From the NCBI RefSeq assembly GCF_011045215.1, contig NZ_CP049201.1: a stretch of DNA of 64,000 nt. The stretch is one strand, 5' to 3'. Below are positions 1,030 through 1,690 of this stretch, in pieces. The stretch is from Escherichia coli. Its GTDB lineage: Bacteria > Pseudomonadota > Gammaproteobacteria > Enterobacterales > Enterobacteriaceae. Position numbers and translations under genes: made by a program. The notes under the pieces are model-generated. The model had not been told where the DNA came from. It did not search any database and worked only from the letters and a program-made list of their open reading frames with translations. Numbering within the stretch: position 1 is the first letter of the stretch; each line of letters begins with the position of its first letter.

Positions 1030-1690
1030 TTTAGTTCTCCTTTATTTAATTAACAAAGGAAATATATATTATTAAATAAACAAAATGCAAATATATTTTT
1101 ATATTTATTTAATTAAATAGTTATATTTTTATTATATTTCATATAAGGTGTTGTTTTTCATTGTTATTTTATTTTTATCAAAAAGTGCTGTGTTTTATTT
1201 GATTGATTTGGTTTGAGAGTAGTGATTGATATAGTATGAATTGGCGATGAGGGTGTTTTAAAAAATAAATTTATCAAAGTGCAAAGGTGCAATGTGGGGC
1301 TTTGTATTAAATTAATGATGTTAGCGCCCCTTGGCTATCTAACTAAAGGTTAAAGCCAAGGGGAGAGTGTTCAGGCAGATTCAATTCATAATCTTTTTTT
1401 TGTAATTGCTTTACAGGTAACTGGTTGAAGCGTTGTTCGTAAAACCTTTTGCTCTCTCTGTAATTTGTCCTGGAGGATTTCTTCATAAAAGTAGCGTTCT
1501 TTTAGCGATTCTATATCAACTTTTATATCATTACGTATTAACCATTTAATTAGCAGTCTTCCTGCATAGTGCGTCAGTAGATATGTACTGCTTATGTAAA
1601 ACCAAACATGACTAATGTCTGTCAGCTTCTTTAGTTGTAAAATTAATTTTTTAGCGTCGGCATTTGTTGGTGTTATGATACATTTATCAC

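What the first reader, a model, noticed from the sequence alone, without database searches (positions are those of the whole stretch)
1327..1363. Perfect 9-bp stem hairpin just downstream of the start-less open frame
ccccttggc (1327-1335) and gccaagggg (1355-1363) form a perfect GC-rich stem around a 19-nt loop, an island of GC in a spacer of very low GC. It lies just 3' of the start-less open frame (minus strand) and could be a terminator, a protein-binding site or a small structured RNA.
Basis: seen in the sequence. Interest (0 to 1): 0.3.

Follow-up and report, generated by a model that had tools for sequence, protein, structure and literature searches.

The report
Hairpin ending an ankyrin gene transcript
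The hairpin is real and conserved, and is most likely an ordinary RNA stem-loop that marks and protects the 3' end of the messenger for a horizontally acquired ankyrin-repeat gene (broken in this strain), with Rho-dependent termination just beyond it.

Summary
The "start-less open frame" is the 3' third of an ankyrin-repeat gene (1386-2371, minus strand) that lost one base in an A7 run near 1705. Intact copies end at TGA 1388-1386, so the hairpin starts 22 nt after the stop on the sense strand.

The locus is a mobilizable island inserted at ssrA. The hairpin is single-copy, matches no Rfam family and has no U-tract on either strand, so it is not a canonical intrinsic terminator.

It travels with the ankyrin gene. 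It is kept in E. coli, Kluyvera, Citrobacter, Pseudocitrobacter, Salmonella and one unidentified sequencing-run assembly (L008). It is absent from related islands that lack this gene. Stem changes are G·U-compatible on the sense strand, or a matched deletion of one T and one A.

Immediately downstream on the sense strand lies a strongly C-rich, G-poor tract, also present in the diverged orthologues. This anatomy matches the protective stem-loops described for Rho-dependent E. coli transcripts.

Verdict: an ordinary 3'-end element and a new member of a known kind. Formal covariation is weak and there are no transcript data. Interest is low.

The parts
1327..1363 (-). Stem-loop. A 9-bp perfect stem (1327-1335 / 1355-1363) extends to 10 bp with T1336-A1354. 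The loop is 17-19 nt and has a weak 5-bp inner helix. The functional strand is inferred to be the minus (gene-sense) strand.
   Evidence: I16. It is conserved in orthologous loci.
1364..1385 (-). A 22-nt spacer between the ankyrin gene's stop codon and the hairpin. It is poorly conserved: about 16 nt long and divergent in the Salmonella and L008 orthologues.
1386..2371 (-). Ankyrin-repeat gene ('ank1', orthologue of WP_016246253.1, 328 aa), a pseudogene in the window. A 1-bp deletion in an A7 run at about 1705 splits it into ORF 1691-2371 and the start-less frame of about 1389-1733. The stop TGA lies at 1388-1386.
1163..1326 (-). A C-rich, G-poor tract immediately 3' of the hairpin on the sense strand, proposed as the Rho-utilisation (rut) region. 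C/G is 4-22 per 78-nt window, against 163:169 inside the gene.
   Evidence: Only 0.2% of all 78-nt windows in the 64 kb reach C/G >= 4. The bias is also present in Salmonella L007 and L008.
589..1029 (-). The next gene downstream, a 146-aa hypothetical protein with no Pfam or PADLOC match. It is the first gene of the conserved backbone hyp146 - ankyrin2 - NikA-like - relaxase. Read-through from ank1 would run into it.

Best explanation
The hairpin is the 3'-terminal stem-loop of the mRNA of the minus-strand ankyrin-repeat gene.

Proposed mechanism (inferred): RNA polymerase transcribes past the stop codon (1388-1386) and the hairpin into the C-rich, G-poor spacer (about 1326-1163). Rho loads there and terminates diffusely, before the promoter of the next gene (hyp146, 1029-589). 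3'-to-5' exonucleases (PNPase, RNase II) then trim the tail back to the base of the GC-rich stem. The stem defines the mature 3' end and stabilises the message.

Shown here: the structure, its position relative to the stop codon, its linkage to the gene, its conservation, the absence of a U-tract, and the downstream C>G bias.

Inferred only: that an RNA 3' end lies here, that termination depends on Rho, and that the hairpin blocks exonucleases.

In the window's own strain the gene is frameshifted. About 300 nt of untranslated RNA therefore precede the hairpin, so premature Rho termination (polarity) may make the element largely idle.
For: 1) Position. In intact copies (E. coli KFu015, E. coli C) the annotated ankyrin gene ends at window 1386. 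The hairpin begins 22 nt later on the sense strand, just beyond a terminating ribosome's footprint.

2) Linkage. Hairpin and ank1 occur together in E. coli, Kluyvera, Citrobacter youngae, Pseudocitrobacter, Salmonella and the unidentified assembly L008. Six related islands keep the downstream backbone (hyp146 - ank2 - NikA-like - relaxase) but lack ank1. They also lack the hairpin, and homology to the window starts only about 170 nt before the hyp146 start codon.

3) Structure retention. 95% of stem cells are paired across 7 distinct sequences. The Salmonella copy (81% protein identity) has two changes that give U·G or G·U pairs on the sense strand but A-C mismatches on the other strand. The L008 copy (82%) lost one T from the 5' arm and one A from the 3' arm and keeps a 7-bp stem plus a perfect 6-bp inner helix. 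In both, the sense strand folds into one extended hairpin, while the antisense fold is interrupted and has z near 0.

4) A 61%-identical orthologue (L010) has an unrelated 9-bp hairpin with a 16-nt loop about 35 nt after its stop.

5) No U-tract follows the hairpin on either strand, and the terminator scan found none.

6) C/G is 4-22 in the 160 nt after the hairpin. That level is reached by 0.2% of windows in the 64 kb. The bias is conserved in Salmonella (up to 21) and L008 (up to 5).

7) Published precedent. [quoted passage not shown] A C-over-G enrichment follows downstream, and PNPase/RNase II trim back to the stem (PMC6061677).
Against: No transcript data were available, so neither an RNA 3' end nor Rho dependence has been observed.

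Formal covariation is nil. No stem pair changes on both sides, and all 500 column shuffles equal the observed scores. Only three diverged lineages exist, so structure conservation cannot be separated statistically from sequence conservation.

One E. coli variant (M171-1, also seen in two metagenome contigs) changes the terminal pair to C-A on the sense strand but U·G on the + strand.

The window's + strand fold is slightly more stable than the sense fold (-23.1 vs -21.2 kcal/mol).

The loop is longer (17-19 nt) than in typical terminator-like stem-loops.

The L010 analogue has no C>G tract downstream. More distant ankyrin paralogues show no consistent stop-proximal hairpin.
Confidence: 0.55

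Rival explanations
1. A weak or atypical intrinsic terminator, or a pause hairpin. The GC-rich stem itself would make RNA polymerase stop or pause after ank1 without Rho, insulating the downstream mobilisation operon.
For: A stable GC-rich stem sits right after a stop codon. It lies between two same-strand transcription units. A distal U-rich stretch (UUAAUUUAAU) begins about 12 nt after the stem.
Against: Only 1 U occurs in the 8 nt after the stem, and no A-tract lies upstream. The loop is 17-19 nt. The scan for stem plus T-run found 0 sites in 500-2900. The diverged orthologues also lack a U-tract.
Confidence: 0.15
2. A DNA-level or RNA-level protein-binding site. Examples are an operator for an island regulator or a recognition hairpin for an RNA-binding or processing factor such as RNase III. 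The conserved loop would be read sequence-specifically.
For: The loop sequence TTTAACCTTTAG and about 25 nt after the stem are fairly well conserved in Salmonella and L008, whereas the 22-nt spacer before the stem is not. The uncharacterised 146-aa protein next door has no family assignment.
Against: In Salmonella and L008 most of the conserved loop forms an inner helix (ACCUU/AAGGU), which explains its conservation structurally. The C. youngae copy changes a loop base. No second copy of the motif exists in the window or elsewhere in E. coli genomes. The element is absent from related islands that keep hyp146 and the mobilisation genes.
Confidence: 0.1
3. No function. The hairpin would be a fortuitous inverted repeat carried along with a recently spread island, looking conserved only because the copies are young.
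For: Among 81 E. coli genomes the region is 98.9-100% identical, and the whole spacer is about 99% conserved. The covariation statistics carry no signal. The hairpin is not more conserved than the coding sequence.
Against: A GC-rich 9-bp hairpin was seen in 0 of 2000 local shuffles. The stem survives at about 80% protein divergence, while the adjacent spacer is scrambled and shortened. The changes are pairing-compatible, including a matched T/A deletion.
Confidence: 0.12
4. A transfer-related DNA hairpin of the mobilizable island, such as a second oriT-like relaxase site or a single-strand initiation site.
For: The island encodes a NikA-like protein and a MobA/VirD2-type relaxase about 2 kb away. 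G·T-compatible changes would also suit a single-stranded DNA hairpin.
Against: A much better oriT candidate exists directly upstream of the NikA-like gene. There a 9-bp inverted repeat is kept in the six ank2-carrying relatives aligned, with different arm sequences in different lineages, and is followed by a TTGACT promoter-like box. The hairpin under study is missing from relatives that keep the whole mobilisation module. No similar sequence occurs in 72,556 plasmids or 50,697 phages.
Confidence: 0.03

Closest known systems
[quoted passage not shown]
   Same: A stable stem-loop lies shortly after the stop codon. No U-rich tail and no upstream A-tract are present. A C-over-G bias follows immediately downstream, and here it is much stronger than the 'mild' average enrichment reported. 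The element is not a REP element.
   Different: No 3'-end, bicyclomycin or exonuclease-mutant data exist for this locus. The apparent loop is longer than usual, although an inner helix shortens it. The element sits in horizontally acquired AT-rich DNA, and in this strain it follows a pseudogene.
Intrinsic (Rho-independent) terminators
   Same: A GC-rich hairpin downstream of a gene, between two same-strand transcription units.
   Different: There is no U-tract adjacent to the stem on either strand. The loop is outside the usual 3-8 nt range. The consensus scan does not call it.
REP/BIME extragenic palindromes
   Same: An extragenic GC-rich palindrome that could stabilise an upstream mRNA.
   Different: It is single-copy per genome and present in only 81 of 5426 E. 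coli genomes, always at this locus. It has no sequence similarity to a repeat family and no Rfam match.
oriT inverted repeats of MOBP-type (NikA/NikB-like) mobilisation modules
   Same: A 9-10 bp inverted repeat in an island that carries a relaxase.
   Different: It is not adjacent to the mobilisation operon and is absent from backbone-only relatives. A repeat kept with lineage-specific arm sequences next to the NikA-like gene is the better oriT candidate.

Membership tests
Protective 3' stem-loop of a Rho-dependent transcript | An energetically stable stem-loop downstream of the gene on the sense strand. | tested here: met
   -21.2 kcal/mol, z -3.8, starting 22 nt after the stop.
Protective 3' stem-loop of a Rho-dependent transcript | The stem-loop is not followed by a U-rich sequence. 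| tested here: met
   The tail is CGCUAACA..., and no terminator-like site was found.
Protective 3' stem-loop of a Rho-dependent transcript | A C-over-G (rut-like) bias immediately downstream. | tested here: met
   C/G is 4-22 over 160 nt, in the top 0.2% of windows, and is conserved in two diverged orthologues.
Protective 3' stem-loop of a Rho-dependent transcript | A precise steady-state RNA 3' end at the base of the stem, read-through on Rho inhibition, and a tail trimmed by PNPase/RNase II. | not testable with these tools
   This needs Term-seq or RNA-seq with and without bicyclomycin, and pnp/rnb mutants.
Intrinsic terminator | A GC-rich stem with a short loop (3-8 nt). | tested here: inconclusive
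   The stem is GC-rich (7 of 9). The loop is 17-19 nt unless the weak inner helix forms, which leaves a 3-5 nt apical loop.
Intrinsic terminator | A run of U directly after the stem. | tested here: not met
   Neither strand has one. The nearest T8 run on the + strand is 31 nt away, inside the coding sequence.
REP/BIME or other dispersed palindromic repeat | Many copies per genome that share a consensus. | tested here: not met
   There is one copy in the window and one place per genome in 81 genomes. The metagenome scan returned only the same locus plus unrelated chance matches.
Known Rfam RNA family | A match to a covariance model. | tested here: not met
   No hit overlaps 1290-1400 even at E <= 10.
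oriT of the island's relaxase | An inverted repeat next to the nick region, adjacent to and co-inherited with the mobilisation genes. | tested here: not met
   It lies about 2 kb from the NikA-like gene with two genes between. It is absent where the module is present. An alternative repeat sits at the expected place.
Integron attC site | R''(RYYYAAC) and R'(GTTRRRY) boxes at the outer ends of an imperfect palindrome. | tested here: not met
   ATCTAAC and GTTAAAG occur, but in the loop (innermost), and the second breaks the consensus. This is read from the sequence.

The most novel reading that the evidence does not exclude
The hairpin and its conserved loop and tail could form a regulated read-through switch. 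A factor-controlled Rho terminator or processing site would couple expression of the cargo ankyrin gene to the downstream hyp146 - ankyrin2 - NikA-like - relaxase operon. Transcription from the cargo would then control island mobilisation, or a stable 3'-UTR fragment would act in trans.
Probability: 0.05. Interest if true: 0.4.

Novelty: new member of a known kind. Interest (0 to 1): 0.12.

Why it matters
It matters little beyond annotation. The work explains two first-stage oddities together. The "start-less frame" is the tail of a frameshifted ankyrin gene, and the hairpin is that gene's 3'-end element. It also gives a clean sequence-only example of the stem-loop plus C-rich tract architecture reported for Rho-dependent transcripts, here in horizontally acquired AT-rich DNA where Rho is expected to be active. 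If confirmed, the hairpin marks the boundary between a cargo gene and the mobilisation backbone of an ssrA-linked island family.

Tried and rejected
- **Rfam:** a scan of 900-2900 at E <= 10 found nothing at the hairpin.
- **Terminator scan:** the consensus promoter/terminator scan called no terminator.
- **Other copies:** one copy in the window and one place per genome in E. coli. Nothing in plasmids or phages.
- **Metagenome scan:** a loop-based pattern returned 10 contigs of the same E. coli-type locus, with the hairpin identical or carrying the known GGGA variant. The 7 other hits were unrelated chance matches, so no new variants emerged.
- **Genome scan:** the scan with the ankyrin alignment gave only 3 usable orthologous loci, so the formal covariation test has no power.
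- **oriT hypothesis:** considered because of the nearby relaxase and a GCGC(C)CC motif reminiscent, from memory, of MOBQ nick sites. It was rejected on position, on absence from backbone-only relatives, and on a better candidate elsewhere. That candidate has no plasmid homologue either.
- **attC, REP and IHF-site resemblances:** checked by eye and rejected.
- **Overlapping or adjacent frames:** a 47-aa ORF (1343-1486, minus) and a 12-codon + strand frame overlap the hairpin; a 42-aa ORF (1164-1292, minus) lies just downstream of it. All were judged spurious because the region has indels among orthologues.
- **General 3' hairpins in ankyrin paralogues:** a test of whether all paralogues in such islands carry a stop-proximal hairpin was inconsistent.
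- **Shared 10-mer:** ACATCATTAA occurs near a Rahnella paralogue, but that locus has no hyp146 or mobilisation genes. It was treated as chance.

Full report
**Observation.** The window reads gcg CCCCTTGGC tatctaactaaaggttaaa GCCAAGGGG agag at 1327-1363.
- The two 9-mers are exact reverse complements and the pattern occurs once in the window.
- T1336-A1354 adds a tenth pair (I16, on the identical L001 sequence).
- Both strands fold into the hairpin: + strand -23.1 kcal/mol (z -3.3), minus strand -21.2 kcal/mol (z -3.8). A weak 5-bp inner helix forms within the loop.
- The surrounding spacer 1030-1385 is 25.8% GC.
- Perfect 9-bp hairpins are not rare in 64 kb, at about 8 nine-mer hits per shuffle. 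A GC-rich one never arose in 2000 dinucleotide shuffles of the local 2.9 kb.

**Context.** The window is E. coli DNA. Positions 1030-1700 are 100% identical to strain KFu015 and 99.9% to E. coli C.
- tmRNA lies at 16204-16566, with an ORF matching the integrase position at 14808-16118.
- In E. coli C the same region runs from ssrA and an integrase remnant through a type I restriction gene and IS1 to ankyrin genes. KFu015 and others continue with a NikA-like gene and a MobA/VirD2 relaxase.
- This is therefore a mobilizable island at ssrA that carries defence cargo. In some strains that cargo includes Kiwa and SIR2.

**The start-less frame.** In relatives, one ankyrin-repeat gene (WP_016246253.1, 328 aa) spans window-equivalent 1386-2372 on the minus strand.
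- The window lacks one base of an A7 run at about 1705.
- The 5' part therefore stops at 1691. The 3' part, residues about 214-328 with no Met, remains as an open frame ending at TGA 1388-1386.
- None of 307 matching RefSeq E. coli genomes shares the deletion.
- On the gene's sense strand the hairpin begins 22 nt after the stop.

**What it is not.**
- No Rfam family matches.
- No U-run follows the stem on either strand, and the terminator scan finds none.
- It is single-copy: one place per genome in 81 of 5426 E. coli genomes, none in plasmids or phages. About 220 further genomes lost it when IS2 truncated the gene.
- It is therefore not a REP-like repeat.
- It is unlikely to be the island's oriT. 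Directly upstream of the NikA-like gene, outside the window, a 9-bp inverted repeat is retained in the six ank2-carrying relatives aligned, with different arm sequences in different lineages. A conserved TTGACT box follows it.

**Linkage and conservation.** Protein searches found orthologues of the ankyrin gene at 95, 82, 81 and 61% identity. Their contigs were then fetched.
- The hairpin is unchanged or nearly so in Kluyvera, C. youngae and Pseudocitrobacter.
- In Salmonella (81%) the first stem C is T and GCC is GTC. Both changes give U·G or G·U pairs on the sense strand but A-C mismatches on the other strand.
- In the L008 contig (82%) one T of the 5' arm and one A of the 3' arm are both missing. 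This leaves a 7-bp stem and a perfect 6-bp inner helix.
- In both diverged copies the sense strand folds into a single extended hairpin, whereas the antisense fold is interrupted and no better than shuffles.
- The 22-nt spacer before the stem is scrambled and 6 nt shorter in these copies.
- A 61% orthologue has an unrelated 9-bp hairpin about 35 nt past its stop.
- Homologues of the downstream 146-aa protein identified six islands with the same backbone (five with ank2; L040 lacks it) but other cargo and no ank1. None has the hairpin, and homology begins about 170 nt before the hyp146 start.
- The hairpin thus belongs to the ankyrin gene's 3' flank, not to the backbone.

**Limits.** The formal pair count shows 95% of cells paired but no pair changed on both sides. 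Shuffles match the observed values. One E. coli variant favours the + strand at the terminal pair. The metagenome scan added no new variants. Evidence for selection on structure is therefore suggestive, not statistical.

**Mechanism.** Right after the hairpin the sense strand becomes strongly C-rich and G-poor.
- C/G is 4-22 per 78 nt between 1326 and about 1163, compared with 163 C : 169 G in the gene.
- Only 0.2% of all 78-nt windows in the 64 kb reach C/G >= 4.
- The bias recurs in Salmonella (up to 21) and L008 (up to 5).
- Dar and Sorek (PMC6061677) mapped E. coli 3' ends. They found that Rho-dependent transcripts end immediately after stable stem-loops without U-rich tails, with C-over-G enrichment downstream. 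PNPase and RNase II trim the diffuse Rho-generated tails back to the stem.
- The present anatomy fits this description feature by feature.

I therefore propose that the hairpin is the protective 3' stem-loop of the ankyrin mRNA. Rho would terminate in the spacer before the hyp146 promoter. This step is inferred, and no transcript data were available.

**Rivals** are a weak intrinsic terminator or pause site, a protein-binding site, a functionless palindrome, and a transfer-related DNA hairpin. Each is weighed in the report sections.

**Verdict.** The feature is real, conserved and ordinary: a new member of a known kind of 3'-end element, of low interest.

Noticed in passing
window 1700-1710 (gene 1386-2371, minus strand): The ankyrin-repeat gene carries a 1-bp deletion in an A7/T7 homopolymer. 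None of 307 matching complete E. coli genomes shares it. It is either a strain-specific pseudogene or a homopolymer sequencing error.
   Followed up: yes
window 5701-5703 (hsdR 3601-6840, minus strand): The type I restriction R subunit is split into ORFs of 379 and 681 aa. The cause is a single substitution (A at 5703 where E. coli C has G) that creates a stop codon. Together with the ankyrin frameshift, this points to decay of the island's cargo in this strain.
   Followed up: partly
window 2757-2791: A second large-loop hairpin, GAGCATCCT-N17-AGGATGCTC, has z -3.5 on the minus strand and -5.0 on the plus strand. It is conserved in Kluyvera and C. youngae. In strain M171-1 it lies about 15 nt after the kwaB stop, and in the window 43 nt from the IS1 end. 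It is probably the 3' hairpin of the gene upstream of ank1.
   Followed up: partly
window 2834-3600: An IS1 copy lies between hsdR and the ankyrin gene. Related islands without it have either a direct hsdR-ank1 spacer or a Kiwa (kwaA/kwaB) pair at this position.
   Followed up: partly
L001:4516-4544 (outside the window, about 450 nt before window position 1): A candidate oriT of the island family. A 9-bp inverted repeat lies immediately upstream of the NikA-like/relaxase operon. It is retained in the six ank2-carrying relatives aligned, with different arm sequences in different lineages, and is followed by a conserved TTGACT box. It has no plasmid homologue by blastn.
   Followed up: partly
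window 1-1029 and loci L036-L041: A conserved backbone (146-aa protein of unknown family, ankyrin protein of about 315 aa, NikA-like protein, relaxase) occurs in Salmonella and Klebsiella genomes and in further assemblies whose organism was not shown, with Enterobacter and E. coli among the homologues' source names. Completely different cargo lies upstream: a two-component system, a YadA-anchor protein, a DNA methylase with DUF4928, or an AAA ATPase. The 146-aa protein has no Pfam or PADLOC match.
   Followed up: partly
window 14808-16566: The island is integrated at ssrA (tmRNA 16204-16566, tag ANDENYALAA), with an adjacent 436-aa ORF (14808-16118) at the position of the integrase remnant annotated in E. 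coli C. From memory, this is the chromosomal site that prophage CP4-57 occupies in K-12.
   Followed up: no
window 1200-1229 (+ strand): GATTGAT occurs twice within 30 nt inside the G-rich (+ strand) spacer. The matching ATCAAT motifs are partly conserved in the Salmonella and L008 spacers. They could be protein-binding sites or simply part of the C-rich tract.
   Followed up: no
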